From: Raillietiella orientalis
Lineage: Eukaryota
Direction of reading: 5' to 3'
NCBI GenBank assembly: GCA_036172245.1
Contig: JAYWIR010000083.1
Coordinates: 248,001-312,000 of the forward strand
Length of the DNA: 64,000 bases
Positions 29,051 to 62,076 of this stretch are shown here, piece after piece. The notes under the pieces were generated by a model, which saw only the letters and a program-made list of their open reading frames with translations, searched no databases and was not told the origin of the DNA. Each line of letters starts with the position of its first letter. Within the stretch, counting starts at the first letter, position 1. A program made the position numbers and the translations under genes.

Positions 29051-29082
<32 letters not shown>

Positions 29083-34915: not shown

Positions 34916-35300
34916 ACGCTGCTCCGCACCAGGACGAGTTGGCTGGTGGTGATAAGGGAGTCCGGGCCGTGGATCCGGTGTCCGTCGACGTTCGGCTCGT
35001 GGTATGGTTAAAGTAGATGTCCCCAGTCGCCCTGATAACATAGCACACGATCTCAGGGCGAAGCGCCTTTCTTTCGGTGTTGCTCAGACCCAGCCAGCTG
35101 AGGATCGCATCGTTGTTCGGGTTCGAGCTACCCAGCGACCCTACAACGATGGCGTCTACCTTGACCAACCATCTCTGTGCTTCATATTCCCTCCGCACGG
35201 TTCGGTACTTGTCGATCTTGTTGGCCGCGGCTTCATCCAGTGAAGCTTGTGTGTTGTCAAAGGGGACAGTCACATGGACTATGAGGATGTTCCGATTGCT
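34916..35300 (-). pseudogene. RLE-domain fragment of a related NeSL-like element (3' UTR missing)
   Basis: [40 protein letters not shown] is paralogous to 29270-29640. Confidence 0.9.
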
Positions 35301-36462: not shown

Positions 36463-39400
36463 CACCCGGGTGAGCCGGGGCTATTAATACTAAAATTTCT
36501 TACAAAGGAAAAAATTCCGTAATAACGTCAATGTTTTTTCAGCAATGTTTGTCTTTTTGTCAGCACAGCAGGTCATTGATTTTTCTGGCACTTGTCCTTA
36601 CCGAACCGTATGCCGAGAAGTTCCTACAAACTGGCACAGGGGTGGGAAAAACAAAAAAAAAGAATATAAAGCAAAAAAAAAAAGAATAACACAGGGGGGA
36701 ACACTGTTTTGTCGGGAGGGGGAGCGAAGAGGGGATCAGGGTGCGCCGTGAGGAGGCCTTTGCATCCTGTTCCGGATGCGAACAAGTGCCGGCAAATTTT
36801 TTTGAAGTCGTCGCCAACGGCAGGCCTTCTCCAAATACTTGGCTGCCCAGTGGATGGCATTCCGACTGGTACTTTGTCTCCTTGACGAGGTCCACTTGTC
36901 CGGGATTCCGCGTTTGCAACAGAGCACTGCTACAGTTCCGGAAGCTGGCAAGGCGTCCCGCATCAGTAGGCGTTTAAATAAATTTTTCGTGTAACCGACC
37001 GGAATGTTTAATATCGACGAGAGTCGTTCCCACATCTCCCGGAGGGCAACACATTCCAGAATCAGGTGGGGGAAGGTCTCCCGTTCCCCGCACTCTGCAC
37101 AACTGGCATCCACACTCCCCGATGTCCATTGCTTAAAAGTCCACAATGCAGCTGAAGCAACGCCGTCTCCTGCCACTGCAGGGGAAGGGTGCCTTTGTCC
37201 CAAGACGCTGCGGGCCACTTCACCTCCTCCGGAGGTACGTAGAGCAGTGCACCCCATCGTGAAAGTCCATTCGGCGCGAAACTCGGGGTACTAGCGTCCG
37301 CTAGTTCCCGGGACGACCACGCCTTCAATAATTTTTTCCTGCCTCCGAAGAGGCAGGACACTTCCCACGATGCCTCCTGTTCGCTGTCCCGAACTTCCCT
37401 GAGGGAGGGCAGCACATTGGCAAGGAGGGTGAAAGAAGCCCACAGAAGTTTTCCTGGGTTGGATACGATGTGCTGCAGTGGCTGAGCAGCGTACCTGCCT
37501 ATACGGAGGCAGGAGAAGTCCTCATAGCTGGAGTTGTTGATCTTCGCCCATGCAGAAACCGACTTTTGAAGCCAGGTAGTCCAGTCCGCTGGGATGCAAG
37601 AGATCCAAGGGTTGTCTCTCATCAGGGCAACCAGATCCCGCAGCTGAAACCCACAATGGTTCAGGCTACCGTCGTTGGCTACCGGCAATGAAGTCAATCC
37701 GAAGCAGCCGGTTGCCCTGTGAGCAAGGAGTCTTGCGGGTGCACACCATTGTGCTGTCCAAAACTTTGCCACAAGGGCAAGTTTTCTGAATTGGAGCTGT
37801 CGCTCCATGCGCTCCAACGACAGGAGACCAAGTCCACCGTCTCTGCGTGGAGCGCACAAGTCTTTCAGCCGGACGCGGGGCCTCCGGTTGCCCCAGAGGG
37901 CTTTACGTATAAGGCCCCTAGTCCGTGTCCTAATTTGGTACGGGGTTGGGCACACAAAAAGTAGGGAGCGAAGGAGGGGGGCCGCGAAAGCGTTCCATAC
38001 CATCGCCAGTTCCTGCAAGTGAAACTTGCCGTTCCGGAACGGGCCGATCGCCAACTACACCTTTTGTAGAATGTCGGACCAGGCTTCTGCAGAGCAGAAG
38101 TCCCCCAACGCAACGCCAAGGTACTTGATGTACCTGCCCGTGGGGATCTCAAAACGGATCCAGGCCGACCGTCCGGCTGTTGTCGAGTCCGTGAATAGTA
38201 ACGCCGACTTCGTCCTGTTTACCTGGAGGCCTGTACCACGGTATAGCAACTCGAAGAAATGTTCGAGCGCCGATGCCGGGGTGGACCCGGGAAGCAGGAG
38301 CAGAAGATCGTCGTCAGAGGCCGCTACGGCTGGCGTGCCGGGGCAGGAGCTCGGCAAGGGGGCCAAAGTCTCCCTGTACGCTCTCAGCACCAAGTCAGCG
38401 TAGGTGCTAAAAAGCAGGGAGCTGGGGCTGTCGCCCTGCCTTATGCACCGCCGCACCGGCACGCCCTACACCTTTTGTCCACTGAAAGTAATCGAGATTA
38501 TCGCTTTCCGCCAGCAAGAGCGCGGGTATGTAATCAAGGAGGGTGGGAAGCCCATGCGACTCAGGAGCTCCAAGAGGATTTCCTGGTCAACACAGTCGAA
38601 AGCCTTATGGAGGTCGACTGCGATCGCTAAGGCCCCGTTTCTCGCATGAGGGTCCCTACCCTGTCCCACTAGCGGCCCCAAAGTAGGGTTGCAAATTTTC
38701 CCTTTCCCTTCTTTCTTACTCCTCTGCGCGTGCATCCATGTGCTCGCGCAGAAGAGGTTGTCCTCCATACTTCGCCCGGGAACAGCGTAAGTCTGCTCCG
38801 GACTAATTATGGAATTGGACACCTGCCCCAATCGCGACGCCCACAGTCCGGCAATCAACTTGGCGTCCGTGTTCACAATTGTGATGGGACGCCAGTTGTT
38901 CAATTTTCTCAGGTCTCCCCCTTTCGGAAGGAGCCTCACTCTGCCTGACCGAAACGAGGCGGGAACATCGCCTTCGTCTCGGATCAGCCTGGTCAACTGA
39001 AGCACCAGGGGGGCCAGCTCTTCCGCGTAGCACTGGAAGAACTCCGCGGGCAAGGCGTCCTCCCCTGGCGCCTTACGCCTTCTGAGCCTTTTGATACCGG
39101 CGAGAATTTCGCCGGTCGTAAAAGGCTCGTCGAGGCTTACCTTCTCCTCCCCTATTCCCGGGGCTCCCTCCGGAAGCAAACGACTGGAAACGTCCCGCTC
39201 CGTGGGGGCCTTGGCGTAAAGGGAGGAAGAAAAACACCGCACGAGGTGCCGTATTTGAGCCGCGGCCGACTGCTCCCGGCCCTGATCGTCCATCAGGCTG
39301 GCCGACCCGGATTGCCAGGCTTGACGTTCGGCCCCGGCTCGATACTCCGCCAGGCGACGGATATTGGGGGTCCTCGCGTAACGACGGGCGTATAAATACG

Positions 39401-39517
39401 CGCGTTCGTTACGGACCCCTTCCCCAAATCAGGGGGCAGGCGATGCAAGGGGAACTCCTCGCAGAATTCCCTGACCGAGGCCTTAAAGAGGTCCCAATCA
39501 GCGAGATTGCGGAGCGT
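36463..39517 (-). mobile_element. 3' half of a Tx1-like LINE (subfamily A, nest level 1), decayed ORF2 and 3' UTR
   Basis: ORF2 from TLRNLADWD through APGED.LP, WRPI, DLHKAFD, RQGD, YLG and CAECGERETFPHLILEC, with stops and frameshifts. Confidence 0.92.
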
Positions 39518-41690
39518 CGAGCGGACGTGTCTTTTCGTTGCTCCTGAGTTTCATTTCCGTTGGTGCTTGTGCGTGGTGTGCGTGGAGGATTAGGCAGCAA
39601 TGCCTGATACCACCACCGGTGAGGATCCGGGGGCGATGACCTCATTGCCCCCGGAGGAGATGGAGGTGGGGGCTCCCGCATCAGTGGAGGCTTCCGCCAG
39701 CATGGATGCGCCCCCGGCCCTACCCAGGGCTTGGAACGCCGTGGCTGCGGCACCTACGCCAGCGGCTATGGCGGAAATGCGCGCTTACCTGGAGGAGGGG
39801 TATAACCCACCCCTTCTATATAAGGTAGGCGGTCTATATTCTCCCGAGAACGCGCGCGCCTTCTCACAGGCGATGCGCGTTCTCGGCGTACAGAAAGAGG
39901 AGCTTCTGGCTATGTCCGTCAGAAGCGGGGGTCAATTTGTGGAAGTTATCTGCAAGGAGGCAACTCTTGCGCAGAGACTTCTGCGAACCCCCGTAATTAT
40001 GGGCAGCCGGAGGCTTCTCCCAATTACTGAAGACCGGTCGGTTATCCCTCACCTGACCGGTATCACGTTCCGGATGACGAAGGAGGCCGTCCGGAACGAA
40101 TTAGAAAAATTTGCAGCTGTCCACGCGCTGTGGGGAAAGCCTACACCTTTTGTCGATTACGACGGGGTGCTTGGCGGCCTGGGTGCAGCGCGAGTGACGG
40201 TTCGCGAGGGATGTGAGTTTCCCCATAAACTCACCGTCAACGGTGAATCCGTTGACGTGTGGTACGTGGGGAAACCCAAGTTTTGCGGCTGCCGCAGCAG
40301 CTTTGGTCACCTAAAAATGAGGTGTCCGAGCGTGCAGTGCCAGCAATGCAAACAAGCGGGGCACACCCGTCTGGTGTGCCCCCAAAACACAGTCCGCGTC
40401 GTGTCCGCGAAAAACGCGAGAAAGCGCGCGGCTAAAAAGAGGAAAAAGCTGGCAGCTCGTGCTGCTGCTAAGGAGGTCACTTCCGCCACCCAGGCGAAGG
40501 CCAGCTTCGAGACCCCGGCGAAAAACGCCGAAAAGGTCGAGGGCGAGGGTCAAGAGCCAGGGTGTCAGAAGGTCGATTTCAAGAAAAACTCCCATAAGAA
40601 GGGAAAGAACGTGGTGAAACGGAGCGAAACCGCTCTGCGCCGCGAAAAAATTAAAAGCTGCTGCGTCGTCGTAGAGCGGATTCCCGCCATCGACGAATGC
40701 GGCGCTAAAGAACTCGCTGCTGCCCCTGCTCAACCCTCCGTTGACAAAGTCAACAAGGAGGGGAGCGAGGCGGCGGCGTCCGTCATCGAGCCCACGCTCG
40801 ATGACGTCGCCTTCGAGCGCGCCGCGGAGGAGCTGGCTGCCTCGTTGCAGCCGGTTGCCCCCAAGGCTGGCAAGAAGGCCGTCAGGCGTCCGGCTTCCCC
40901 TCAGGAGTCGGCCACTTCCGACCCCGAGGTGAAGGCCGGAAACACAGCATCCATCTCCGCGGCACCCCGCAAATAGGCAGGACGAATGTCCACAATGCCC
41001 CGGAAGATCGTCTCCCCCGACGAAGGGGAAGAGATGGCTTCCGGTAGCGAGGGTGCCATGAGCGTGGGGAACTCCCGGGACCCGTCGACCGAGAGACTCC
41101 CACGCGCGGACACGGAGGGGATGGTGAGGATGGAGGCCGAACAGGTACCCCAGGCGCCTGAAGAGGCCTCCGTCCTCGTTCCGATGGTCCTCGTACCGAT
41201 GGACCTTTCCTACACCTGCCCCGCGGCAGGTGCCGCGACGCCACTTTCCCAGCCATAATGCCGGGAATCGCCTCTCGCCGTCGTCTTCTGATCGCCTGTT
41301 GGAACGTGAACGGGCTAAGCGACGACGGCAAGAGGCGTGACGTGGCAGCCACCCTGGCATCCTTCGACCTGGTGCTGCCGCAGGAGATCCACGTGATCTC
41401 CGCAGATCAAGCCCGGGAGATCGAACGGATCTCGAGTGGGCGGCTGTTGTGGCGTTGCGGCACCGCGAAATCAAGCGGTGTCGTCTTCCTGCTTCGGCCA
41501 GCCATCGAGACCTCAATAAAGGACGTTCGGTTCGATGACGCAGGTCGCGTCAGTCAGCTGACTCTCAGCTGGTCCGACTTTATCGATCTGGTCGTCACCA
41601 ACCTACACGCTCCTAGTGGAAACGCCGCGTTGAGGGCGAAGGCAAGAAGGGAGTTCTACCTTCCCTGAGACGCGATTGGCTGACCGAACT
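39518..41690 (+). mobile_element. 5' part of a Tx1-like LINE (subfamily B, nest level 2): ORF1 39600-41258 with one internal stop, APE start from 41258
   Basis: ORF1 has twin CCHC knuckles (CGCRSSFGHLKMRC, CQQCKQAGHTRLVC). TAATG stop/start overlap. ORF2 begins IACWNVNGL..QEIH..NLHAPS. Confidence 0.92.
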
Positions 41691-42770
41691 TTTTTTTCTT
41701 TTCTGGCCTTTACTAGCTTCTATCCTTCTTCCTCTCCCGCGTCTTCAGCAGGTTTTTCCTCCGACGCCTGGGTGGGAGGAACAGGAGATGGCGGCTGGAG
41801 CCGGCCAGTTACGCGATAAGGTCTTTCGTCCTTTTTTCATTTTTTTTTGCCTGTGCCTTTTTGGCAGCAGGTGGCACCGGGGTGGGGCGTTTGGAGCACA
41901 CGACGAACGTGTCCCTTAACCCCGCACAAGTGGCACTCGATATTCGCGCACCGCTTGTGCAAGTGCCCTACTGCATCGCAGTAGCCACAATAGCGGGGTT
42001 TCCCCACGTACCAGAGGTCGACGGATTCATTTGCGACCTTCACTTTGTGCGGCAAGCCACTGCCCTCATTAACCGTTACACGCGCTGCGGTCTGGCTCCG
42101 AAATGGCTATTGAAGCCTTCGAAAATGGTAGGCATTGGCCACAACGCATGTATCTCACCGTACATACTGAGTTCATTACTCACCGCAGATCGCGTCATGC
42201 GGTTCGTAATGCCGGTTAGATGAACCACTACGGAGCGGTCCATGCTAACCGGCAGGATCTTCCGGCCATCCACATTCAGCGGGGTGTTAATGAGGCGCTG
42301 TGTTAAGGCTACGTCTTTGCAGACGACCTCCACGCGCTGCCCCCCGCTGAGTACGGAGAGGCCGTCAAGATCCTCCTCGCGTACAGGGAAATCCTGCAGT
42401 GCCCTACTAAAAGCCCGGGCGGTGCGACCATCAAACAGGGGTCCTACCTTATAAACCAGAGATGGTTTATATCCTGAGGCCCTGTAGGCCGCTTGCTTTG
42501 CCAAGGTTTCCGCGCTCGGCGCGGTAACCATGGCGCTCCACGTCCTCGGCGTTGCCAAGGATGATTCCGGGGCGCACGCCCCTGATTCTGCAGGCTGTGG
42601 GGGTGGGCAAGCCTCCCCCACACCTACCTCCATCGTGGTGTCCTCAGGCGTCGCTGCCATCGGACACCAACGATGTTCCACACGAACACACACAAAGAAA
42701 AAACCGCTTCCTGTCGACTCGCTCGGGAGGTTAGGAAAAACACGTCCGCTCGCCAAGGGATTTGGGGCTG
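41690..42770 (-). mobile_element. 5' UTR and partial ORF1 of a Tx1-like LINE (subfamily A)
   Basis: MAATPEDTTMEVG..YKPSLVYKVG..CGYCDAVGHLHKRC..CHLCGVKGH; 3'-truncated. Confidence 0.9.
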
Positions 42771-45700
42771 TCACCCGGGTACGCCCGCGACGTTAATTGA
42801 AAAAACTCTGCATAAACGTGGTACGAGGCCCCACTAACGGCCACACAACACCGGACCTGCAGGGACGCCGGGACGCAGCCCGGCGTGACGCTCCTCGGCA
42901 GTGGAGGGGGATAGGGATCAAAACACAAAAAAATAAAGATATGAAAAGAAAAACAAAAAGAGTTTGGAGGGAGGGGAAGGGATCACAATCCACTGGGAGG
43001 AGGGCCCATCCTTCGCAGGATGCCCTCGAGGTCCATCTTCATGCTTCCCAGATGGGGCCACCTCGCAGCTCTCCGCATGAAGCAGACCGCATACGGGATG
43101 ACATCCCTCGCGTTGGCATCCACTCCTTCGTCGCGAATGTCGCTCCAGGCCGCCACGATGCCCCGGATGCAGCAGAGGGCTGCGGCGGGTTGCAAGGCGT
43201 CCCGCATTAAGAGGGGCCGAAGAACGTCTCTGGGCGCGCTGCCCATTAGGGACCCGAGGGTCGTCCCGAACCGTTCCCACAGGGTTCGGAGGGCAGCACA
43301 GTCAACAAGTGGGGGAGCTATTCCCGCTCCCCACACCTGGCACACTCAGGCCTTACACTTCCCCGCGTCCATTGGAAGCGGTGCGCGTTGCAGGGTAGAC
43401 CCCAGTGCAACAGTAGCAGCGCCGACTCTTGCCACTTAAGGGGGAGAAGCCTGGATCCGATTAATATTGGGGGCCACTTCAGGTCATCCGTCGGGATGCC
43501 GAGCAGCTCGCCCCACCTACGAAGTCCACGCGGGAGGGCATTCGGGGTTGTGGCATCTGGCAGTTCTCCCATGGTCCAACCGCTCATCTTCTTTTCCTTG
43601 CCTGCGATTCGGCAGGAGACTTGCCACTTTGGCTTGCAGCCGCTGGTTAAAGCTTTTCGTAGGAAGGGCAGGGTCGAAGCTAGGGGGGTAGTCTCCACCC
43701 ACGTGCTCCTGGCGGGACACTCCAGAGTAGTCCGCAGTGTGCAGCAGGCGTTGGGGCCGAATCGCAGGCGGTTCCAGTCCGGGGAAGTCTGGAGGTTCAG
43801 CTTGGCCCACGTCGCAAAGGATTCCTCCAGCCAGGCGGAGGAGTTGGCGGGGCTGCATACCGTGCAGTTGTGGTCTCTGACCAGGGCTTCCATGCGCCCA
43901 AGGAGAAGGCCGCATCTTCTGACCTTCCTGCCAGAGCACAGAAGGTACGACGCGATTCCTTGCGTCCTGGACACACGGCTGGCGAGGATGCGGGCCGGAA
44001 CGCACCAAGGGGTGCTCCATGACTTTGCTGCGATGGCGAGGGTGCGCGATCGCAGCTGTATGTCCACGCGCTCCAGCGTCAGGAGGCCGAGACCGCCGTC
44101 CCGACGAGGAGCGCATAAGTCATCTAGAGGCACACGTGGCCTCACGCTGCCCCAGAGGGCGATGCGGAGTAGGTCCTTGGTCCTCTTTTTAATGTCACGG
44201 GGGACGGGGCAAACAAAAAGCAGGGGGCGGAGGATGGGAGCCGCGAACGCGTTCCACACCGCGTCCCGTTCCGGCAGAAGGAACTTGCCTTCCAGGAACG
44301 GGCCGATTGCCCACTCTACCTTTTGGAGACGACCTGACCAGGCTTCTGCGAGGCAGAAGTCCCCCAACGGGACACCCAGGTACTTCAGGTACCTGTCCGC
44401 GGGGATCCCCAAGCGGATCCAGTCAGGCCGTCCGACCCACGTCGCACCCACCGGTACGACCGACGACTTCGCCTTTTTTACCCGAAGTCCAGTGCCACGA
44501 CTTAGCAGGTCGAAGAAATCCTCGACTGCGGCTGCTGGGGCGGACATGGGCAACATGAGCAGAAGGTCGTCGGCGTATGCTGCTACGGCGGGCGTGCCGG
44601 GGCACGAGCTGGGCAGGGCAGCCAAAGTCACCCTGTACGCTCTCAGCACCAACTCAAAGTAGGTGCTAAAGAGCATGGGAGTGAGGCTATCGCCCTGCCG
44701 TATGCCCCGCCGCATCGGCACGCCGTACACCTGTTGGCTGGAAAAGCAGATGTTAAGGATGGCGTTGCTCCAGTAGGAGCGCAGGAAGGAGAGAAGGGAG
44801 GGTGGGAAGCCCATGCGACCCAGGAGCTCCAACAGTAGCTCCTGGTCAACGCAGTCGAACGCCTTATGGAGATAGACCGCGATCGCTAGGGCCCCCTTCC
44901 CAGCCCGGGTGTCCATTCCCAGCAAAGCTGGCGGTCCCAAAGTGGGGTTGCCAAACTTTCCCCCTGTGTCGTTCAGGCAGCGCTGCACATGGAACCATGT
45001 GCTCGCGAAGAACAGGTTGGCATCCATACTTCGCCCTGGAGCAGCGTATGTCTGCTCCGGGCTAATTATGGAGTCTGCCACCTGTCCTAGACGCGAAGCC
45101 CACAGTCCAGCGACCAGCTTGGCCTCCGTATTGACAATTGTGATCGGACGCCAGTTGCCTAGGGATCTCAGGTCTCCTCCCTTCGGCAGGAGCCTCACAC
45201 GGGCTGACCGAAACGAGGCGGGAACGTCGCCTTCGTCTCGGATCAGCCCGGTCAACTGGAGCACCAGGGGGGCCAGCTCTGTCGCGAAGCATTGAAAAAA
45301 TTCCGCAGGCAGGCCGTCCTCCCCTGGCGCCTCACGCCTCTTAAGCCTTTTAATACCGGCGAGAATTTCACCGGTAGAAAAAGGCTCGTCGAGGCTGATC
45401 CTCTCCTCCTCCCCTATTGCCTGGCCTCCATCCGGGAGCAGGAGCCGCGAGGCGTCTCGCTCTGGCGGTGCCCTAGCGTAGAGGGAGGAATAATAATGCC
45501 GCACGAGGTGCCTGATCGCGGATGGGGCCGATCGCTCCCGGCCCTGGTCGTCCAGCAAGCTGGCCGACCCGGATTGCCAGGGTTGGCGCTCGGCCCCAAC
45601 TCGATATTCCGCGAGGCGACGGACATTGTCGGTCCTCTCGTACCGGCGGGCCTGTAGATATGCCCGATGGTTCCGAGACCCTTCTTGGAATCCGGGGGGC

Positions 45701-50665: not shown

Positions 50666-50909
50666 TTTACACCCGGGTGCGCCGGGGCGTTTATTTCTTT
50701 AATAAAAAAATAAACAAGCAAGTGTAGGGCTATCTCCCCTACAGTGTTCAGAACATGTTCTTCTGAACTCGCCGAGTGGGCAGCACGCAGGCTCCCAAGG
50801 TCGACTCGGCAGCGGAGGGGGAAGGGACAAATAGAAAAAAAGAAGAAAACACTATTTACAAAAGCAGGGAGGGGTTGGGGAGGGGATTACGTTCCGCTGG
50901 AGACGTCCT

Positions 50910-53900: not shown

Positions 53901-54476
53901 CCGTTCCATCCCGGTATCCCCGGCTAACAAGTTGGATGCGTGCACCGCAGCGCACATCTCGTTAACCATGGTGGCCTCTGTCCTCGCCGCACCTGATAGC
54001 AGGCGAATATTAAAATCGCCGGCTATCAGGTGCGCCGTGCGCGCGCCTGCCTCCGACAGCCAGTCGCGCTTGAACGCACGAAAAAACGCCGTCCGTGCCA
54101 CGCGCGCGTGACCGCCGCTCGGCGCGTACACGTTCGTGACGACGAGATTGATGGAGTCGGACCACCTGAAGGTGATTTGCCCGACCCGACCTGCCTCATC
54201 GAAACGAACTTTCCGCACCGCGCGTTGTAAGGCAGGCTTCAGAAGGAAAGCGACCCCGCGCGTACGGCGGTGGCCGCATCGCCACATAAGCTGACCACCT
54301 GCTATCCGTTCGATCTCCCGCGCATGTTCTGCGGAAATCTCATGGATCTCCTGCAGCAGCACGAAGTCGAAGGCTTGCAAGGTGGCAGCTATGTCTCGTC
54401 TCCTGCCGTCATTGCAAAGCCCGTTGACGTTCCAGCTGGCGATGCGTATTTGACGGCAGGTGGCGAGTCCCGGCAT
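50910..54476 (-). CDS. ORF2: APE endonuclease, reverse transcriptase, C-terminal CCHC (1188 aa)
   Basis: SWNVNG, LQE, VYAP, GDFN, VDH, SDH; SPGEDG, WRPI, DLRKAFD, GIRQG..LSP, YADD, YLG; CVRCGERETLPHLLVDC. Confidence 0.97.
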   Translation of the reverse strand: MPGLATCRQIRIASWNVNGLCNDGRRRDIAATLQAFDFVLLQEIHEISAEHAREIERIAGGQLMWRCGHRRTRGVAFLLKPALQRAVRKVRFDEAGRVGQITFRWSDSINLVVTNVYAPSGGHARVARTAFFRAFKRDWLSEAGARTAHLIAGDFNIRLLSGAARTEATMVNEMCAAVHASNLLAGDTGMERSVDHVFLDDHLRCRVGRRGKIQSAVSDHSRVELVIRPRDRGPPAQAWRRPGDWLTKPGAAEHLRAFLRGFSLQTLDDWDDLKVSVREFCQQFPMDRLPKGVGEGVRNDRAYLQARRYSRTPDVRRLAEFKAGAERQAWQSGSPSLLDDEGQEHSAPAEVSSLVRGYYSSLYTRVPPDREFSQFLLPDGAPAIGEEERVRLDEPFTMGEIITAIGKLKRRKSPGEDGLPAEFIQCFAAELAPLVQRLTLLIRETGDVPASFPSARMRLLPKGGDLRNLSNWRPITVLNANAKLVAKLWSERMGLVAESFISPEQTYAVPGRSMDANLLFANTWFELQRTRMNGGNKVGSPICGTSAGGSRNSREREGALAVAVDLRKAFDSVDQELLLERLERLGFPASLLAFLRSCWRDALTNISFRGRNVFGVPVRRGIRQGESLSPLLFSTYFELVLRAFRETLGRLPRVCPGTPALAAYADDLLLLLPMSTPASAVENFFELLRRGTGLEVNRAKSSVVAVGSSWAGQLDWSRLGIPTVRYLKYLGVPLGDYSPAEQWSCCLQKAERAIGPFLDGKFFLPERAVLWNTFVAPLFRSLLFVCPPPRGVRTRTKDLLRIAIWGRGRPRARWKDLCAPRRDGGLGLLTLERLELQLQFRTIAQVAKLWSASWCEPARCLVQRVGGCAGLSTFLARRKRRYLFHCGLALRRVAKLTRKNTWISCRPANGTSWLQESLRTWAQIEKASPELRQRMLHSYHKSRTLQDIIVQPALSAWAEKTSLATALSHLKEHLGSSQPAMWEVRCTIRDTEKEQGGWTTGQLADAAIPSYPPRGLLRWGELLCIPRDELEWPPVLRNTRALPLKWQESAFLVLHWGLPSNARRSHWTRGVVDPNCVRCGERETLPHLLVDCVALRPLWLRFATAVGAPLHAPRDVLKRLFVRDALSPAAALAALCCLRGIVAAWSTATYGPNDRDILCYALRFLRTAARWTHLGHMQIELAGILQRM

Positions 54477-56077
54477 TACTGCTGGGAAAGTGATGCTGCG
54501 TCTCCCGCCTCACCTAGGGGCGGGACGCCGGCTTTCTCCTGTGCGGTGGGGGGCGGCTCGACGACCCCCTCCGTCTCCATCGGCTCCGTCTCGACCGATC
54601 GTGGGAGTTCAGGACTCGTGTCCATCTCTCCCACGCTCGCCGCACCCTCGTTTCCGGAGGATTCCTCTTCCTCGGAGGAGACGATCCTCCTCGGGTTACG
54701 GATTTTCCTTCCGGTCTTCCTCGGGGGTGCAGATGCGGATGGTGCGTGTCCGGTCTCCGGGTCCGAGTCCGAGGTCCCGTTCCCCCTCCTCTCGGCCGGA
54801 CGTCGAACGGCCTTCTTCCCGACCTTTGCGAGAGGCTGCTGACTGGCGGCGAGCTCGGCGGCGGCTTTTGCAAAGCCCGCGTCATCGCGGCTCTCCCCCT
54901 CGCCGCAGCCCTCGGACGCTGTTTGCACAGCGACGGGGCTGTCAGCGTTGTTGCACACGGCAACGTCCTGTTCGCACGGCACTTCGGCGTCTGCAAGGCG
55001 CTCCAGTGCGACCGTGCATTTTTTCAGTCCCTGCTTTTTCGCGGGTTTCGCGGCTTTTGCAGGGACTTTATTTTTATTATTTACGTCCTTTTTTTCTTTC
55101 TTTTTCTTTGGACTGACCTTTTGCCAGCCAGGCTCTTCTCCTTCCACCTCGGTTGCCTGCGTTTCTGCAGACGGGGTGGTCGGGATGCCCTTTTTGGCTG
55201 GCTCCGGGTCAACCGTATTTTCAGACGGCGGCCTGGTCTTGCCAGGCTTCTTGCTCGCGTTCGTGCCGCTCACGGCAGCAGCCGGCGCGCGCGAAGTCTT
55301 TTTGGGGCACACCTCTTCCGTGTGCCCGATTGCCTCGCACTTGCGGCAGGTGATGTTGGGGCAGCGTTTCTTCACGTGCCCCGTACCATCACAAAACGCA
55401 CAGTATTTGGGTTTCCCCAGATACCAGATGTCGACAGAATCTCCGTCGACTACTAGTTTATGGGGAACCTCAATGTCCTTATTCACAGTCACACGTGCCG
55501 CGGCGAGTCCGCTCAGGAGTCCGTCATAAGTACGGAACCTGTTCGGCTTCAGCCACAGCGCGTGTATGGTGCCGAATTTGCTGAGTTGAGCCCTGACGGC
55601 GCTCGGTGACATCCGCACGGTGATTCCACGGAGGTGGAGAACTATTGAGTTGTCCACCGGGACAGGGAAGATCTGGCGGCCCTCGACCCTGACGGGGGTT
55701 CGCAGCAGTCTTTGCGCCAACCCTGCTTCTTTGCAGGTCAACTCGACATGCTGTCCCCCGCTGCGGATGGAGAGACCCAGCAGATCCTCCTTGTTAACGT
55801 TCAAACGGTGGAGCTCCTTCTCGAAGGAGCGCGCCCCACGGTCATCAAACACCCGGCCTACCTTATACAGCAGACTCGGGTTGTAGTTGTAGGCCTTGTA
55901 GGCCTGGGCCTCGGCGATGGCCGCTGCAGATGGCGCGGCGACCGCGGCGCTGTAGTCCCTCGCCGGCGCGGGGGACGAAGCTTTCGGGGCAGGTGCCCCT
56001 ATCTCCATGGGTACGGGGGACGTTCGCCCGGCCCCCACCCCACATTCACTAGTGGCGGGATCAGGCATTTCTGCCAT
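54476..56077 (-). CDS. ORF1: nucleic-acid-binding protein with two CCHC knuckles (533 aa)
   Basis: The ATG at 56077 (MAEMPD, as at 59631) is the homologous start. CAFCDGTGHVKKRC and CRKCEAIGHTEEVC. The stop overlaps the ORF2 ATG. Confidence 0.92.
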   Translation of the reverse strand: MAEMPDPATSECGVGAGRTSPVPMEIGAPAPKASSPAPARDYSAAVAAPSAAAIAEAQAYKAYNYNPSLLYKVGRVFDDRGARSFEKELHRLNVNKEDLLGLSIRSGGQHVELTCKEAGLAQRLLRTPVRVEGRQIFPVPVDNSIVLHLRGITVRMSPSAVRAQLSKFGTIHALWLKPNRFRTYDGLLSGLAAARVTVNKDIEVPHKLVVDGDSVDIWYLGKPKYCAFCDGTGHVKKRCPNITCRKCEAIGHTEEVCPKKTSRAPAAAVSGTNASKKPGKTRPPSENTVDPEPAKKGIPTTPSAETQATEVEGEEPGWQKVSPKKKKEKKDVNNKNKVPAKAAKPAKKQGLKKCTVALERLADAEVPCEQDVAVCNNADSPVAVQTASEGCGEGESRDDAGFAKAAAELAASQQPLAKVGKKAVRRPAERRGNGTSDSDPETGHAPSASAPPRKTGRKIRNPRRIVSSEEEESSGNEGAASVGEMDTSPELPRSVETEPMETEGVVEPPPTAQEKAGVPPLGEAGDAASLSQQ

Positions 56078-56152
56078 CCCCCGACCACTGATGCACCGCA
56101 CTACACCAATAAAGTCGAGCGAGTCAGGAGCGCGCAGAGAACACGTCTGACC

Positions 56153-56813
56153 GTCGTCGCTGCTGGTGTTGCATTGGGGACTTCCTTGCAACGCCCGCCG
56201 ACACCACTGGACGCGGGGGGGTGTCAACCCTAATTGTGGCAGGTGCGGGGAGAGGGAATACCTCCCCCACCTGTTAGTGGTTTGTGTTGCCCTCCGTCCC
56301 TTGTGGGAACGCTTTGCCGCAGCCCTGGGGATCCCCGGAGGCAACCCCAGAGACGCTTTGCGCCCCCTCTTCGTCCGTGACGCCCTGCCTCCAGCGGCCT
56401 CGCTTGCAGCCCTGTGCTGCCTACGCGGGATCGTCGTGGCATGGAGCAAAGCGACGGGAGGATCCAGCGACAGGGATGCCAACGTGTATGCCTCCCGTTT
56501 CCTCAGGATGGCGACGCGATGGCCCCATCTGGAACCGCACACGCAGAAGCAGCTTGCCGGCATCCTCCAGAGTATGACGGACCCTCCCAGCAGACTGTGA
56601 TCCCTTTCCGCTCCCTCCCTGATTTTTGTTTATTTTTTTGTTTTCTTTTTGTTTCGTTCCCCCTCCCCTCTGCTGCCGAGGTCGACCGCGCCGGTCTGCG
56701 CACCGGTAGCCCGGCAGGCTATATCTTTCCAGGGCGTGGCTGGACTACTGGTGCAGTCACAGATTATATAGGTTTATTCGTGAGAATAAAGGTCCTGGCG
56801 CTCACGGGTTTCA
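56153..56813 (+). mobile_element. 3' end of the level-2 (+) Tx1-like LINE
   Basis: SSLLVLHWGLPCNARR..CGRCGEREYLPHLLVVC..stop at 56600, then the 3' UTR with AATAAA at 56785. Confidence 0.92.
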
Positions 56814-59722
56814 AGCGAGATTCCGGAGGGTGACGCCTCTCAGGAATTCGCGAAGGTGTTCCTTCGCATCTGAGAGGCGCGTCCAGTCCCCAGGCAACCG
56901 CCACGCCCTGGACGGGGATCCGTTGTCGCGCGGGCACACCTCGAATATCAATTTGGAATGGTCAGACAGTTTCGACGCAACTTTCCCCCGTTTGCCGACC
57001 CGCGAGCACTGGTCGACGTCCAGGAAGACGTGGTCGATGCTGCTGACCATTTCCGGGAGTTCCCCTAACAAGTTGCGCGTGCGCATGGCAGCGCACAACT
57101 CGTTAGCCGTCCGTTCCTGTGTGCGTGGCTCACCTGATAGCAGGCGGAGATTCAAGTCTCCCGCTATCAGGTGAGCCACGCGCACGTTCGCTTCCACCAG
57201 CCAGTCGTGCTTCAGGGTTTCCAGGAACGCCGCGCGTTCCCGGTACCTGTTATAACCGCTCGGGGCGTATACGTTTGTTACGACGAGGTCGATTGTGTCG
57301 GACCATGTGAGAATCAGCTAGCCGACACGACGGGCTTCGTCAAAGCGCACGCCCTTCAAGGCAGCGTCGACCGCCGGCTTCATGAAAAACGCGACGCCGC
57401 AGGTGTATCGGGTGCCGCATTGCCACACCAGCCGCCCCCCTGCGATCCTCTCGATCTCCTGGGCGTTCTCCCCGGTGATCACGTGGATCTCCTGCAGGAC
57501 TGCCTGGTCGAAGTCACGCAGGGTGGCTGCCGTGTCCCGTCTGTTGCTGTCGTTGCGCAGCCCGTGGACGTTCCAACATGCCACACGCAATCGACGACGA
57601 CAGGCGAGCCCAGGTGTTATTCCCGGGAAAGTGGCAATGGGGCTCCCGCCACCTGGTCGGGCGGGACGGATGGAGGCATGGGGGCACCGTTCAGCGGTTC
57701 TCTTACTTCCATGGGGGCCGATTCCTCGGCGGACCGCAACGGTTGAAGGGAGCATGCTTCACGCACCTCCATCCCCTCTTCCATGGGGGCCGATTCCTAG
57801 GCTGCGTTGACGGCAGGGGGGAGCGGTTCTCAGCTATCTGCTCCCCCTCTTCCATGACCATCTCCGCAGGCTCCACCGGTGGAAGGGGGAGGCAATGCCC
57901 TACCTGCTCCCCCTCCTCCATGGGGGTGGCCGGCTGCTCGGTGGCGGAGGGTGGGAAAATTTCTCCCTCCGTTCCCACGCTGCCGGCTTCCCCCTCGGCT
58001 GCCGGTGCGTCCCCCTCGCTCTTCGTCGGGATGCGCCTCTTGGGATTCTTGGACTTCCGTCCAGTCTTCTTCGGAGGCGCCTCCGTGGAGGACGCACTTC
58101 CGGCATCCGGGTCGTGGTCACCTGTCGGAGATGCCCTGGTCGCGGCCGGCCTTCGCAAGGCCTTTCGCGCGCCGTTCTCACGGTCGGCGAGTTCGGCCGC
58201 GAGCTCTTCCTCCGCCTGCTGGAAGGCGGCCTCGTCGATCTTGGCGAGCGCGTCGCGCGGTTCCCCCTCTGTTTGCACAAAGGGTTCGCCTTCCGTGATC
58301 GCGTTATCGTCGGCATCGACGCGGGGGATATCTCCCCCGGTGGCGGTCTCGGGTACCTCCACACGCTCCAAAGCGACCGAACATTCGCGGAGCAACGCGC
58401 GGCGTTGTCTCCTATTAAAAGGAGACGTCGCGGGTTTCGCTGTCTACCCTTCGGTTTTCTTGGTTTTCTTGGCTTTAGGCTTCGCCTTCTGCCAGCCTTC
58501 GCTCTTTTCAGCGTCGTCGGTAGATTCCACGACCGGCGTTTGCTGCACGGGCTCGGGCTCCGGTTGTGGGTTCCGTCTCACGGGTGCCTTCGCAGGCTTT
58601 TCCGTAGCCCCCGCGCGTTTTTCTTTGGCCTTTTTCAAGGCAGCGGGAGCCGGGGGTTCGCGCTTCGGGCACACTTTGCGGAGGTGGCCCTTCTCTCCAC
58701 AGTGGAAACACTGGATGTGAGGGCACCGCTTTTTCAGGTGCCCTGTGGAATCACAGTGTCCACAGTACTTGGGCTTGCCCACGTACCAGACGTCGACGGT
58801 CTCGTTGCCGACGTCTAGTTTGTGGAGTAGCCCACCGTTTTCGTGGACGGTTACACGCGCACCAGCCATGCCACTAAACAGTCTTCCGTAACTCTGGAAG
58901 ACGTTGGGCTTGGTCCATAGCGCGTGAACCGTTCCGTGTTTTCCGAGTTCCTCCTGCACGTCGGCTTTCGACATGCGGAGGGTGACTCCCGTGAGGTGCG
59001 TCACCACGGAGCGATCCTCCGTTACCGGGAAAACCTTTCGGCCTTCCAGTGTGATTGGCGTATTCAGGAGGTGTTGAGCAAGGCTTGCATTTCTGCAAGT
59101 CAGCTCCACACGCTGACCACCACTCAACACGGAAAGACCTTCCAGGTCTTCCTCTTTTACGTTCAACCGCTGCAACTCCCTTTCGAAGTTGCGAGCGGTG
59201 TTCCCCACAAACAGATTGCCTACCTTGTATATAAGGGACGGCTTCTATCTCTGCTCCAGGTAGGCTTTCTGCTCGGCGAGGGCTGCAGGAGATGGGGCTG
59301 CAGCCACTGAACTCCAGGTCTTCGGCGATGCCGAAGACGCATTCGAGGGTGCAGGTGCCCCCTTCTTCAAGGAGGCGGTTGCGCCCTTTTCCAGGGTTGC
59401 GGTTGTCCTCTTTTTCAAGGGGGCGGTTGCACCCTGTTCCAGCGGGGCTTTTGCGTCCTTTTTCAAGGGGGCCTTTGCCCTTGCTTCCGAGGCTGCGGTT
59501 GCCCCCTTTTTCAGGAGTGCGGCTGCCGTAGCCTCCGTGGGGGCGGTTGCCCCCACCTCCGTGGGTTGGGGAGAGGAGCAAGCCTCTCCCCCTCCTATAT
59601 CCATCGCGGTGTCCTCAGGCATTTCTGCCATTGGACACCGCAGATGCTATACACACAAACACAATCGAAACCAAACGCTTTACACCAGGCGCGGAGGAGC
59701 GCTAGAAAAACACGTCGCACGT
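56814..59722 (-). mobile_element. 5' half of the level-1 (-) Tx1-like LINE (ORF1 59631-57617 disrupted, APE to TLRNLA)
   Basis: ORF1 CCHC knuckles, VACWNVHGL, GDLN and SDHS; ends at FLRGVTLRNLA. Confidence 0.92.
59353..59520 (-). repeat. In-frame 24-bp tandem repeat (about 7 units) in the ORF1 N-terminus
   Basis: ALLKKGAT/AASEARAK/APLKKDAK/APLEQGAT/APLKKRTT/ATLEKGAT/ASLKKGAP. Confidence 0.85.
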
Positions 59723-62076
59723 CAAGTTGATAGCAGGGCTATGGGCTTCGCGTCTGAAGCAGGTGGCAGAATCCGTAATTAGCCCGGAGCAGACTTATGC
59801 TGTTCCCGGGCGAAGTATGGATGCCAACCTCTTCTTCGCAAGCACATGGGTGCACCTGCAGAGAAGAGAGAAGAAAGGGATCGGGAAATTCGGCAACCCC
59901 ACATTGGGGCCGCCAGCCGGGCTGGGAAGGAACCCCCGGGCGGGGAAGGGGGCCCTAGCGCTCGCAGTCGATCTCCACAAGGCGATCGACTGTGTAGACC
60001 AGGAACTCCTTTTGGAGCTCCTGGGTAGCATGGGCTTCTCACCCTCCCTGATTTCCTACCTGCGCTGTTGCTGGCGGAATGCGATGATTACCGTGTCTTT
60101 CAGTGGTCACAAGGTGTATGGCGTGCCGGTTCCGCGAGGCATAAGGCAGGGAGATAGCCTCAGCCCCCTGCTCTTCAGCACCTACTTTGAGTTGGTGCTG
60201 AGAGCGTACAGGGTGACTTTGGGCCCCTTGCCGAGCTCGTGCCCCGGCACGCCCGCCGTAGCAGCGTACGCCGACGATCTTCTGCTCTTGTTGCCAATGT
60301 CCACCGCGGCAAAGGCGGTCGGAGACTTCTTCGATCAGCTCAGCCGCGGGACCGGACTGCAGGTCAACAGGGCGAAGTCGTCGGTTGTGCCAATAGGTGC
60401 GGCGTGGGCAGAGCAGCAGGACTGGGTCCGTCTGGGGATCCCCACGGCGAGGTGCTTCAAGTACCTTGGTGTGCCGTTGGGGGACTACTACCCTGCGGAA
60501 GCGTGGTCCACCTGCCTCCAAGAAGTCGAGACGGCGATCGGCCCGTTTCTGGAAGGCAAGTTTCACTTGCCGGAACGGGCTTCGGTTTGGAACCCTTCGC
60601 GGCCCTCATCCTCCGCCCCTTGCTTTTTGTTTGCCCCCCCACCGTGGAATCCAAGAAGAGGACAAAGGACCTCCTCCGTATCGCCCTTTGGGGCAAGGGG
60701 ATACCCCGAGTCCCTCTGAAGGACTTGTTCGCTCCGCGTCGGGACGGGGGTCTTGTCCTCCTGACGCTGGAGCGCGTTGAGAAGCAGCTGCGGTAGCGAA
60801 CCCTCGCCATCGCAGCGAAGATGTGGAGCACCCCTTGGTGCACTCCGGCTCGCCTCCTGGCCAGCCGTGTGTCCCGGTGCGATGGACTCGCGTCTTTTCT
60901 TCCGAGCCGTGGCCGGAAGACGCGAAGATGCGGCCTACTGTTCGGGCGCATGGCAACATTGACCAATAAGAACAGCTGGATGGTTTGCTGTTCCGCCAAC
61001 TCCCCCGCCTGGCTGGAGAAGAATATTGGAACGTGGGCAGTGGTTAACCAGACAAGCCACGAGACGTGGAATCGTCTCCGATGCAGCCCCTACGCCCGCT
61101 GCACGCTGCGGAATCTCCTGGAGAGTCCAGCAAGATGCACGTGGGCAGAGACGACCTGCCTATCTACGGCGCTGCCCTTCTTGAGGAGGGCACTTCACAG
61201 CAGCCGGACGCCAAGGTGGCAAGTCTCCTGCTGCATCGAGGGACGCGAGAAGTTGATTAGCGGCTGGACAACAGGAGAACTGTCCGATGCCACGACCCCG
61301 AGCGTCCAGCCGCGAGCATTAGTAAGATGGGGCGAGCTGCTCGCCATCCCCAGGGATGAGCTGAAGTGGTCCTTGCTTCTCCAGGAATCCAGGATCCTGC
61401 CCCTCAAGTGGCAACAGTTGGCGTTGCTGCTGTTGCAGTGGGGTCTACCCTGCAACGCGCGCCGCTTCCACTGGACGAGGGGAGCTGTGGATCCTGCGTG
61501 TGCCAAGTGCGGGGAGCGGGAGTCTCTCCCCCACCTTATTGTGGATTGTGCTGCCCTTCGACCCCTTTGGGAACGGTTCGGGACGACCCTCGGGCTCCCT
61601 ACGGGCAGCACCCCCAGAGACGTACTTCGGCCCCTCTTCGTGAAGGACGCACTGCAGCCAGCCGCAGCCATCGCAGCCTTGTGCTGCGTCCGTGGCATCG
61701 TGGCGGCATGGAGCGACGCCAACAACGAAGGAGTGGGTCCACAGGCGAGGGATGTCATCCCGTATGCGCAACGCTTCTTGCGAAGAGCTGCCGGATGGCC
61801 CCAACTGGGGAATATGCAGACAGACCTTGAGGGCTTCGTTCGAGGGATGGGCCCTCCCCACAGCGACCAGTGATCCCTTCCCTGCCCTCCAACTTTTTGT
61901 TTGTTTCTTTTTATTTTTTCTTTTTGTCTTATCCCCATGCCCCTTCGCTGTCGGGGAGTGCCACGCCGGGCTGCGTCCTTGTGTCCCGACAGGTCCTGTG
62001 TTTACGGCCGTGGTGGGGCCTTGTACCACGCATGTAGAGTTTATTAATAAACGCCCCGGGCGTACCCGGGTGATAA
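59723..62076 (+). mobile_element. 3' half of a Tx1-like LINE (subfamily A, level 0): RT to 3' UTR
   Basis: KLIAGLW..YADD..CAKCGERESLPHLIVDC, stop at 61873, AATAAA and terminal hairpin. Confidence 0.93.

What the first reader, a model, noticed from the sequence alone, without database searches (positions are those of the whole stretch)
36463..62076. Nest of Tx1 LINEs, each inserted antisense into ORF2 of a relative
Seen: broken ORF2 ends rejoin across the inserts. The (-) ORF2 stops at TLRNLA (56814) and resumes at TLRNLADWD (39517), with an 18-bp repeat (39500-39517 vs 56814-56831). The (+) ORF2 stops at QSAL (50665) and resumes at SSLLVLHWG (56153), with a 12-bp repeat. Subfamily markers (TAATG vs TAACA, RT insert type) agree between the rejoined halves. 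Orientation alternates + / - / + / - over four levels, and all four nested 5' ends (39518, 48415, 56152, 59722) abut an opposite-strand ORF2. Inference: the family targets its own relatives, strand-specifically.
Basis: partly seen in the sequence, partly recalled or inferred. Interest (0 to 1): 0.85.

Follow-up and report, generated by a model that had tools for sequence, protein, structure and literature searches.

The report
Nested LINE cluster with antisense insertions
This is a real pile of related L1/Tx1-like jumping genes inserted into each other's reverse-transcriptase gene in the opposite orientation, and one lineage appears to home to a single short motif in a sister lineage's gene, a new target for a known habit of such elements.

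Summary
The nest is real. An old (-) element R (36463-39517 + 56814-59722) is split by a full-length (+) element BS, flanked by an 18-bp duplication (16/18). BS is split in turn by an intact (-) element T (50666-56152; 12-bp duplication, 10/12). A public contig joins 50660 to 56160, showing the empty site. BS is also split at ORF2 codons ~300-304 by two (-) elements, Q and P. The rejoined halves carry matching subfamily markers, and decay falls inward.

Only three nesting levels are proven, not four. R's 3' end abuts an R2-like fragment, not the missing half of the (+) element X.

The strongest new point concerns lineage I (P, Q, X, Y). All four copies sit at the same motif, the antisense of ORF2 'PKGFG'. 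A 13-14-nt remnant of that motif lies in both tandem junctions, as expected from double insertion at a specific target.

The L1-like nature rests on APE and RT domains and on human L1 as the best solved relative. Tx1 membership could not be tested. Every nested insertion is antisense (4-6 events), which is suggestive but comes from one window, and no genome was held. Targeting other transposons (Tx1 clade) and self-nesting (Zepp) are both known. I file this as a new member of a known kind, of moderate interest.

The parts
36463..39517 (-). R, 3' part (lineage II): ORF2 codons ~273-1199 and 3' UTR, ending in the palindrome CACCCGGGTG. Positions 39500-39517 are one copy of the 18-bp duplication.
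   Evidence: tblastn map; junction sequence; 3 in-frame stops and 2 frame changes in ORF2.
39518..41683 (+). B, the 5' part of element BS (lineage IV): full 5' end (CGAGCGGACGTGTC...), ORF1, TAATG junction, and ORF2 codons 1 to ~152.
   Evidence: Groups with T with 95/95 support.
41684..42752 (-). Q (lineage I): full 5' end and ORF1 up to the Lys-rich tract only. It is cut at a deletion junction with GTTC microhomology.
   Evidence: Alignment with P and Y; 81.4% identity to P; 3 stops and 1 frame change.
42753..42766 (+). 14-nt remnant of BS ORF2 (CC AAG GGA TTT GGG = P-K-G-F-G, codons ~300-304), left between P's 3' end and Q's 5' end. Positions 42757-42766 are one copy of P's 10-bp duplication.
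42767..48417 (-). P (lineage I): full-length, conserved 5' start at 48411, plus 6 nt of uncertain origin at 48412-48417. ORF1 is open; ORF2 has 1 stop and 2 frame changes; the ORF1/ORF2 junction reads TAACA.
48418..50665 (+). S part 1 (middle of BS): ORF2 codons ~303-1064. Positions 48418-48427 (GGGATTTGGG) are the second copy of P's duplication. Positions 50654-50665 are one copy of T's duplication.
   Evidence: The motif is homologous to R's uninterrupted ORF2 at the same codons.
50666..56152 (-). T (lineage III): intact element. ORF1 runs 56077-54476 (533 codons from the first ATG of the element). ORF2 runs 54476-50910 (Exo_endo_phos, RVT_1, weak zf-RVT). TAATG stop/start overlap.
   Evidence: Empty site seen in a public contig.
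56153..56813 (+). S part 2 (3' end of BS): ORF2 codons ~1061-1199 and 3' UTR with a degenerate terminal hairpin. Positions 56153-56164 are the second copy of T's duplication.
56814..59722 (-). R, 5' part: full 5' end, ORF1, TAACA junction, and ORF2 codons 1-278. Positions 56814-56831 are the second copy of the 18-bp duplication.
59723..62076 (+). X (lineage I): 5'-truncated at ORF2 codon ~490, complete 3' end. Its truncated end abuts R's 5' end head to head, which is unexplained.
   Evidence: 77.5% identity to P.
62077..62091 (-). 15 nt between X's 3' end and Y's 5' end. Thirteen of them (CCGAATCCCTTGG) match the BS remnant 12/13. I read this as the antisense of PKGFG from an unseen (-) host ORF2.
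   Evidence: chance about 1e-6 at a fixed offset.
62092..64000 (+). Y (lineage I): full 5' end, ORF1, TAACA junction, start of ORF2. It runs off the window.
35880..36458 (-). Context: a 5'-truncated copy of the 3' ~590 nt of the R2-like element Z. It forms the left flank of the nest, with TTTT between it and R's 3' end.

Best explanation
The block 36463-64000 is a genuine nest of at least four lineages of one L1/Tx1-like LINE family with APE endonuclease and RT. It was built by successive target-primed reverse transcription events, each leaving a 10-18-bp target duplication.

Inferred order of events:
1. R (lineage II) was present first.
2. BS (lineage IV) inserted full-length and antisense into R at ORF2 codons 273-278.
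3. Q, then P (both lineage I), inserted antisense at BS ORF2 codons ~300-304. P landed in the upstream copy of the duplicated target, which left 14 nt of BS between the two.
4. One deletion of about 5 kb removed Q's 3' part together with BS codons ~153-299.
5. T (lineage III, still intact) inserted antisense at BS codons ~1060-1064.

X-Y is a second tandem of lineage I around the same 13-nt ORF2 remnant from another host copy. So lineage I most likely recognises a specific sequence on the antisense strand of the ORF2 of T/BS-like lineages (...CCCCTT|CCCAAATCCCTTGG). Its own ORF2 lacks that sequence.

Shown: the anatomy, the duplications, the lineage assignments and the empty site for T.
Inferred: the order of events, the sequence-specific nicking by lineage I's endonuclease, and the existence of the unseen host of X-Y.
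Not established: that T, BS and R are also targeted, or that antisense orientation is a rule.
For: - Domains: Exo_endo_phos 2.7e-14 and RVT_1 1.7e-21. The best solved relative is human L1 ORF2p, 3e-46.
- Map of pieces in ORF coordinates.
- Duplications: 16/18, 10/12 and 10/10 at the exact termini, with chance values.
- Termini: six 5' ends all carry GACGTGT, and five 3' ends carry the (C)ACCCGGGT-type hairpin. The extended terminal patterns occur nowhere else in the window.
- Empty site for T: one 374-nt contig out of 244 laid.
- Lineage markers and identities; tree with (T,B) at 95/95 and (Q,P,Y) at 100/100.
- GGGATTTGGG right of P is true ORF2. R's uninterrupted ORF2 has TGATTTGGGG AAGGGG at the homologous place, and T, P and a relic read LP(K/P)G(V/F)(G/Q)EG there.
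- P's own ORF2 reads CCCCCCGGATTCCAAG at the site, so it does not carry the motif.
- Decay falls inward. R has 5 stops and 2 frame changes, BS 5-6 stops and 1 frame change, P 1 stop and 2 frame changes, T none. Q is more decayed per kb than P.
- Established knowledge: tandem site-specific LINEs separated by a copy of the target duplication arise by double insertion, as for R1 with 33 nt of rDNA (PMC5932611, passages).
Against: - One window only. The four lineage-I copies make just two loci, and the host of X-Y is inferred from 13 nt.
- The P-Q and X-Y junctions are alike even in the element tails (GACAGC vs GATAACG). They could descend from one composite rather than from independent hits, and the tree leaves Q/P/Y unresolved.
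- P's upstream copy of the target is only 10 nt, followed by 6 unexplained nt.
- T's duplication has 2 mismatches in 12 although T has no lesion, which is odd for a young insertion.
- R has no duplication, and its two flanks (an R2-like piece and X) do not belong together.
- The run laid is only 90-95% alike for most contigs (154 of 244). It tests the family, not this assembly.
Confidence: 0.55

Rival explanations
1. No sequence targeting. The block is a repeat graveyard next to an rDNA relic, where any new LINE lands in an older LINE. Antisense orientation and the ORF2 location are chance or survivorship. The P-Q and X-Y tandems are two descendants of one old composite, by segmental duplication or gene conversion, so the shared motif counts only once.
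For: - The window holds a 28S fragment with an R2-like insert, stacked R2-like pieces and old LINE relics.
- ORF2 is about 65% of an element, so about one insertion in three would be antisense in ORF2 by chance (my estimate).
- With 4 independent events the all-antisense probability is only 1/16.
- The tails and filler at the two tandem junctions are homologous.
- The Q/P/Y branching is unresolved.
Against: - P's 10-bp duplication shows that P itself inserted at the motif in BS. So at least P, and the origin of the other tandem, used the same site.
- Q is closer to P (81.4%) than to Y (74.4%). That is the opposite of what a duplicated P-Q/X-Y composite predicts.
- The flanks of the two tandems differ (BS versus R/unknown).
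- Six of seven independent elements are full-length with exact ends.
Confidence: 0.28
2. Regional rather than sequence targeting. The family is drawn to a chromatin domain (centromere-, rDNA- or heterochromatin-like) as proposed for Zepp/ZeppL, and nesting follows from that. Orientation bias and the shared motif are secondary.
For: Zepp clusters arise by nested insertion that targets existing copies, with one cluster per chromosome (PMC8226300 and PMC3446292, passages). This nest lies beside rDNA-derived sequence.
Against: - Regional targeting does not explain re-use of one 10-14-nt site by lineage I.
- It does not explain the exact 13-14-nt remnants in both tandem junctions.
- Zepp arrays are described as mostly 5'-truncated 3' ends, whereas here 6 of 7 elements are full-length.
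Confidence: 0.12
3. Assembly artefact: similar repeats were joined wrongly, which created apparent nesting.
For: - The region is made of 55-81% similar repeats.
- Two junctions lack insertion signatures: R/X at 59722, and B/Q at about 41683.
- No long reads of the source were available.
Against: - Misjoins do not create complete element termini flanked by target duplications, nor halves that resume at the same codon.
- An independent contig shows the T empty site.
- The copies differ by 20-45%, too much for collapse.
Confidence: 0.05

Closest known systems
Target-specific Tx1-clade LINEs: Tx1 into the piggyBac-type Tx1D; Tx1-Mar into Mariner-N4_AMi; Tx1-8_Crp and Tx1-4_AMi into LTR retrotransposons; Tx1-9_AMi about 300 bp from the 5' end of Harbinger elements
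   Same: These are APE-type LINEs of animals that insert at a fixed place inside another transposon family (PMC4494074, passages). Here lineage I sits at one motif of another element four times out of four. The window is from an animal, judged from its R2-type element.
   Different: The target here is the coding sequence (ORF2, antisense strand) of a sister lineage of the same LINE family, not a DNA transposon, an LTR element, an RNA gene or a microsatellite. Placement of this family in the Tx1 clade was not testable: no reference set was available, and the best database relative is 26% identical.
Zepp / ZeppL L1 LINEs of green algae
   Same: These are L1-type LINEs that form clusters by nested insertion into existing copies (PMC8226300 and PMC3446292, passages).
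   Different: Zepp arrays are described as mostly 5'-truncated 3' ends, whereas here 6 of 7 elements have complete 5' ends. The 3' ends here are a hairpin plus 0-5 nt, not a long A tail. The host is an animal, not an alga. Whether Zepp nests are antisense or site-specific could not be checked, because Higashiyama 1997 and Yamamoto 2003 are not held.
Tandem R1 elements of Drosophila separated by 33 nt of duplicated rDNA (double insertion at one target)
   Same: A head-to-tail pair of site-specific LINEs with a copy of the target duplication in the junction (PMC5932611, passages). P-Q (14 nt) and X-Y (13-15 nt) have the same layout.
   Different: R1 targets 28S rDNA and belongs to another clade. 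Here the duplicated target is a piece of another LINE's ORF2.

Membership tests
L1-superfamily (APE-type) LINE | N-terminal apurinic-type endonuclease followed by reverse transcriptase in ORF2 | tested here: met
   T ORF2: Exo_endo_phos at aa 24-231 (2.7e-14) and RVT_1 at aa 472-744 (1.7e-21). Human L1 ORF2p is the best solved relative at 3e-46, against R2 proteins at 6e-15 or weaker.
L1-superfamily (APE-type) LINE | C-terminal Cys-rich domain in ORF2, and an ORF1 with zinc knuckles | tested here: inconclusive
   zf-RVT scores 21.5 bits, below Pfam's cut-off of 27.5. zf-CCHC in P's ORF1 scores 18.7 bits, below 20.8. A CX2CX4HX4C-like pair is visible in T's ORF1.
L1-superfamily (APE-type) LINE | Insertion with target-site duplications of about 7-20 bp (range recalled) | tested here: met
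   18 bp (16/18), 12 bp (10/12) and 10 bp (10/10) at three insertions. None was found for R.
L1-superfamily (APE-type) LINE | Poly(A) or A-rich 3' tail (recalled as typical of L1 proper) | tested here: not met
   The five 3' ends finish in CCCGG-N5-CCGGG(TG) plus 0-5 nt (TAAA, ATAA, ACAGC, TTCA, AAAA). This resembles 'stringent' LINEs with a 3' stem-loop, a comparison I make from recall.
Tx1 clade | RT phylogeny places the element within Tx1 | not testable with these tools
   No Tx1 reference sequences were available. The nearest database proteins are unnamed and at most 26% identical. The Atlas gives only generic APE+RT clusters.
Tx1 clade | Preference for a specific target sequence (many members) | tested here: inconclusive
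   Lineage I: 4 of 4 copies at one motif, but in only two loci of one window. Lineages II-IV give one event each, at different sites.
Zepp-like LINEs | Nested insertion into existing copies, forming clusters | tested here: met
   R contains BS, which contains Q, P and T.
Zepp-like LINEs | Arrays made mostly of 5'-truncated 3' ends | tested here: not met
   Only X, 1 of 7 independent elements, is 5'-truncated. The feature is as described in PMC8226300.

The most novel reading that the evidence does not exclude
A guild of sister LINE lineages in one animal genome that use each other's ORF2 as a safe landing site, always on the antisense strand. Each lineage's endonuclease would be tuned to a different short motif of a rival lineage and absent from its own ORF2. 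Lineage I would home to codons ~300-304 of the T/BS type, BS-type to codons ~275 of the R type, and T-type to codons ~1060 of the BS type. That would make it LINE-on-LINE hyperparasitism, which both disables competitors and builds inverted-repeat nests able to feed small-RNA silencing.
Probability: 0.25. Interest if true: 0.65.

Novelty: new member of a known kind. Interest (0 to 1): 0.42.

Why it matters
If the site preference holds genome-wide, it adds a new class of target, a sister LINE's own coding sequence, to the known list for sequence-specific LINEs (rDNA, snRNA genes, microsatellites, DNA transposons). It would give a compact natural case for studying how APE-type endonucleases shift specificity between close lineages, and how LINE lineages compete. 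If it does not hold, the locus is an ordinary nested repeat block. It is still useful as a clean, dated example, with an intact youngest copy, three target duplications and one empty site.

Tried and rejected
- Whole-genome junction map: not possible, because no genome is held.
- Relatives elsewhere, none found:
  - protein search, best hit 26% identity;
  - metagenome and genome contig scans with an alignment of T and P ORF2, after the first 7-sequence alignment was too variable to search with;
  - an exact scan for the Y/Q junction pattern.
- Earlier findings of this scan: none.
- Sequencing runs: one DNA run with a 0.08 share of words, and no RNA holder listed.
- Other 'joints' (41687/46053, 44201/49890, 49034/52980, 43175/51100, 44526/52441): rejected as structure. 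By codon arithmetic each links the same ORF2 position of two paralogs. I did not examine 49535/58678 (side 21) or 54492/57149 further.
- No contig spanning the BS empty site in R was among the rows shown.
- X's missing 5' half: not in 1-36462. The tblastn 'ORF1' hits at 28010-28331 lie inside a 28S fragment and are spurious.
- Q's A-run as a poly(A) tail, meaning a 3'-truncated retrocopy: rejected, because P and Y have the same internal A-run and the homology continues to a GTTC microhomology.
- The first ~160 codons of the 717-codon stop-to-stop 'ORF1' of T are the antisense of S's ORF2 tail, not ORF1.
- The 14-nt filler as part of lineage I's own 5' end: rejected, because the same bases are ORF2 in S and in R.
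- Twin priming with a single RNA for the R/X head-to-head junction: rejected, because R is a complete element of another lineage.
- 3' hairpin covariation: none found, 0 of 5 pairs with compensatory change.
- Literature searches (listings, plus the passages cited in this report) showed no LINE lineage described as targeting a related LINE's ORF2. This is not proof of absence, and the two primary Zepp papers were not held.


Full report
WHAT IS THERE

From about 28 kb onward the window is 58-63% G+C. The stretch 36463-64000 consists almost wholly of copies of one LINE family.

The best copy, which I call T (50666-56152, minus strand), is intact.
- ORF1 has 533 codons from its first ATG (56077) to the stop at 54476-54478.
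- ORF2 has 1199 codons stop-to-stop (50910-54509). It carries Exo_endo_phos (2.7e-14), RVT_1 (1.7e-21) and a sub-threshold zf-RVT.
- Its best solved relative is human L1 ORF2p (3e-46). R2 proteins score far lower.
- No close relative exists in the large protein collection; the best hit is 26% identical.

So this is an APE-type, L1-group LINE.

THE MAP

I used T's proteins and DNA as rulers and read every junction. The names are mine.

| Piece | Coordinates | Strand | Content |
|---|---|---|---|
| R, 3' part | 36463-39517 | - | ORF2 codons ~273-1199, 3' UTR |
| B | 39518-41683 | + | 5' end, ORF1, ORF2 codons 1-~152 |
| Q | 41684-42752 | - | 5' end and part of ORF1 |
| ORF2 remnant | 42753-42766 | + | 14 nt of BS ORF2 |
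| P | 42767-48417 | - | full length |
| S, part 1 | 48418-50665 | + | ORF2 codons ~303-1064 |
| T | 50666-56152 | - | intact |
| S, part 2 | 56153-56813 | + | ORF2 tail, 3' UTR |
| R, 5' part | 56814-59722 | - | 5' end, ORF1, ORF2 codons 1-278 |
| X | 59723-62076 | + | ORF2 codon ~490 to the 3' end |
| Filler | 62077-62091 | - | 15 nt |
| Y | 62092-64000 | + | 5' end onward; runs off the window |

All six complete 5' ends carry GACGTGT a few bases from the terminus. All five 3' ends finish in a short hairpin, CCCGG-N5-CCGGG(TG), plus 0-5 bases, with no long A tail. The extended terminal patterns occur nowhere else in the window.

Both 'rejoins' are real.

R.
- R's ORF2 stops at 56814 and resumes at 39517 at the same codons.
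- The 18-mers 39500-39517 and 56814-56831 match 16/18 and both read TLRNLA. Chance at a fixed offset is about 4e-8.
- The insert between them begins with a complete 5' end (B) and ends with a complete 3' end (S). It is therefore one element, BS, with an 18-bp target duplication.

S.
- S's ORF2 stops at 50665 and resumes at 56153, with 12-mers matching 10/12 (chance about 6e-5).
- T's complete ends lie exactly between them.

Independent support came from a public DNA run. Of its 244 contigs that could be laid, one 374-nt contig covers 50529-50660 and then continues at 56160-56400, with 12 differences in all. This is an uninterrupted S-type ORF2, i.e. the empty site. Most contigs of that run are only 90-95% alike (154 of 244), so it tests the family and not this assembly.

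- T and B read TAATG at the ORF1/ORF2 junction (stop and start overlap). P, R5 and Y read TAACA.
- Around the RT insert, S shares T's residues, while R3, P and X share another set.
- By identity, B and S are each nearest to T (60.3% and 69.8%). R5 and R3 are each nearest to P (64.8% and 67.1%). P, Q, X and Y form a tight group at 74-81%.
- A tree of the 5' kilobase gives (T,B) 95/95 and (Q,P,Y) 100/100, with R5 as their sister.

I therefore distinguish four lineages: I (P, Q, X, Y), II (R), III (T) and IV (BS).

Only three nesting levels are proven: R(-) contains BS(+), which contains Q, P and T (all -). The supposed outermost (+) level, X, is not shown to be R's host.
- R has no target duplication.
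- R's 3' end, after four A's, abuts a 5'-truncated piece of an unrelated R2-like element (35880-36458).
- X's missing 5' half is not in the window.
- The head-to-head junction of R's complete 5' end with X's truncated end at 59722 remains unexplained.

BS is also not simply split in two. It lacks ORF2 codons ~153-299. Q ends inside ORF1 at a junction with GTTC microhomology, where P and Y continue. A single deletion of about 5 kb that removed Q's 3' part together with the adjoining piece of BS explains both facts.

THE MOST INFORMATIVE FEATURE

The 14 nt between P's 3' end and Q's 5' end read CC AAG GGA TTT GGG on the plus strand, that is P-K-G-F-G.
- This is what BS's ORF2 should read just upstream of S's first codons (GGG ATT TGG G.AAG GGG ...).
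- The same ten bases, GGGATTTGGG, stand on both sides of P, at 42757-42766 and 48418-48427.
- They are truly ORF2. R's uninterrupted ORF2 has TGATTTGGGG AAGGGG at the homologous place, and T, P and an old relic read LP(K/P)G(V/F)(G/Q)EG there.

So P inserted into BS at codons ~301-304 with a 10-bp duplication, immediately upstream (in element orientation) of Q, whose 5' end abuts codon ~300.

The other tandem, X-Y, has the same layout. X's 3' end is followed by 15 nt, of which CCGAATCCCTTGG matches the BS remnant 12/13 (about 1e-6 at a fixed offset), and then by Y's 5' end.

A head-to-tail pair of site-specific LINEs with a copy of the target duplication in the junction is the known signature of double insertion at one target. 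The classic case is tandem R1 elements with 33 nt of rDNA between them (PMC5932611, passages).

All four lineage-I copies in the window are thus at one motif on the antisense strand of a T/BS-type ORF2. Lineage I's own ORF2 reads differently there (CCCCCCGGATTCCAAG). I read this as sequence-specific targeting by lineage I.

CAVEATS ON THAT READING

- There are only two loci. The second host is inferred from 13 nt.
- The two junctions are alike even in the element tails, so common descent of the composites is possible.
- Against common descent, Q is closer to P (81.4%) than to Y (74.4%), but the tree leaves Q/P/Y unresolved.

ORIENTATION AND SITE

Every nested insertion whose host can be read is antisense: BS in R, Q and P in BS, T in BS, and by inference X and Y in their host. 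Counted as 4 to 6 independent events, this gives 1/16 to 1/64.

All six full 5' ends, and four of five 3' ends, abut antisense ORF2 sequence. The exception is R's 3' end.

ORF2 makes up about 65% of an element and the block is nearly all LINE. About a third of random hits would therefore look the same (my estimate). T (codons ~1060-1064) and BS (codons ~273-278) give one event each at unrelated sites, sharing only C|AGC at the inferred first nick. The general claim that the family targets its relatives strand-specifically is therefore suggestive but not shown.

AGE ORDER

In-frame stops and frame changes relative to T:

| Element | Stops | Frame changes | Note |
|---|---|---|---|
| R | 5 | 2 | outermost |
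| BS | 5-6 | 1 | |
| Q | 3 | 1 | within 1.07 kb |
| P | 1 | 2 | |
| X | 1 | 1 | |
| Y | 2 | - | |
| T | 0 | 0 | intact |

This fits decay decreasing inward, and Q being older than P. One oddity remains: T's duplication has two mismatches although T is unblemished. The right-hand copy differs from the public contig's version, so an error-prone 5' junction is possible.

CONTEXT

Left of the nest lies an R2-like element Z (29127-34587, minus strand).
- It carries RVT_1 (3.9e-30) and hits solved R2 proteins at 2e-58.
- Its nearest named relatives are R2-type proteins of ticks, aphids and spiders, at about 40% identity.
- It sits inside a 28S rDNA fragment.

The window is therefore from an animal. 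That fits a Tx1-type family, since the Tx1 clade is described as animal (PMC4494074, passage), but it does not prove it.

COMPARISON WITH WHAT IS KNOWN

- Tx1-clade families are known to target specific places in other transposons: Tx1 into Tx1D, Tx1-Mar into Mariner-N4_AMi, others into LTR elements or Harbinger (PMC4494074, passages).
- Zepp/ZeppL L1 elements of green algae are known to build clusters by nested insertion into existing copies. Those arrays are described as mostly 5'-truncated 3' ends (PMC8226300 and PMC3446292, passages). Here 6 of 7 elements are full-length.
- The primary Zepp papers were not held, so their orientation pattern could not be compared.
- In three literature searches I saw no report of a LINE lineage that targets a sister lineage's ORF2. 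This is not proof of absence.

VERDICT

The nest is real and more intricate than described. The best-supported new point is a probable site-specific lineage whose target is a motif in a relative's ORF2. This is a new member of a known kind, target-specific L1/Tx1-type LINEs. Interest is moderate, and it needs a genome-wide junction map to stand.

Noticed in passing
window 27984-29126 and 34588-~34990 (28S, +); 29127-34587 (Z, -): An R2-like element lies inside a 28S rDNA fragment but antisense to the rRNA. 29 model positions of 28S are missing between the two flanks (left end ...GGGAGTAAC, right start CGTCATCTAATTAGTGACG...). From recall, classical R2 is inserted in the sense orientation within this same stretch.
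   Followed up: partly
window 34587 (Z 5' end) compared with 39518, 42752, 48411, 56152, 59722, 62092: The R2-like element and all six full-length L1-like copies start with the same short motif, GACGTGT followed 9-10 nt later by GCTCC, although their proteins are unrelated. It may be a shared initiator or promoter module, or an exchanged 5' leader.
   Followed up: no
window 34999-35275 and 35880-36458: Two further partial copies of the 3' region of the R2-like element (73-78% identical to 29127-29715), on the same strand. The second abuts the 3' end of the LINE nest.
   Followed up: partly
window 54472-54480, 41255-41262, and the homologous sites in P, R5 and Y: The ORF1/ORF2 junction is TAATG (overlapping stop and start) in T and B. 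In P, R5 and Y it is TAACA, so ORF2 has no ATG there. Translation of ORF2 may start differently in the two groups.
   Followed up: partly
window 24618-27668 (-), 11630-12157 (+), 8414-8656 (-): Old, decayed relics of the same LINE family lie in the lower-GC left half of the window. One, at 27199-27668, reads through the codon ~300 site uninterrupted (LPPGFGEGVRN).
   Followed up: partly
window 26006-26725 (-): A 239-codon open frame with a weak, sub-threshold RNA_helicase match (E 0.0015, 19.4 bits against a cut-off of 21.5), lying between the two pieces of the old LINE relic.
   Followed up: no
window 59722/59723: A head-to-head junction of R's complete 5' end with X's 5'-truncated ORF2 (codon ~490), without a duplication or the matching other half. 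The topology would fit two cDNAs primed from the two ends of one break, but nothing tests this.
   Followed up: partly
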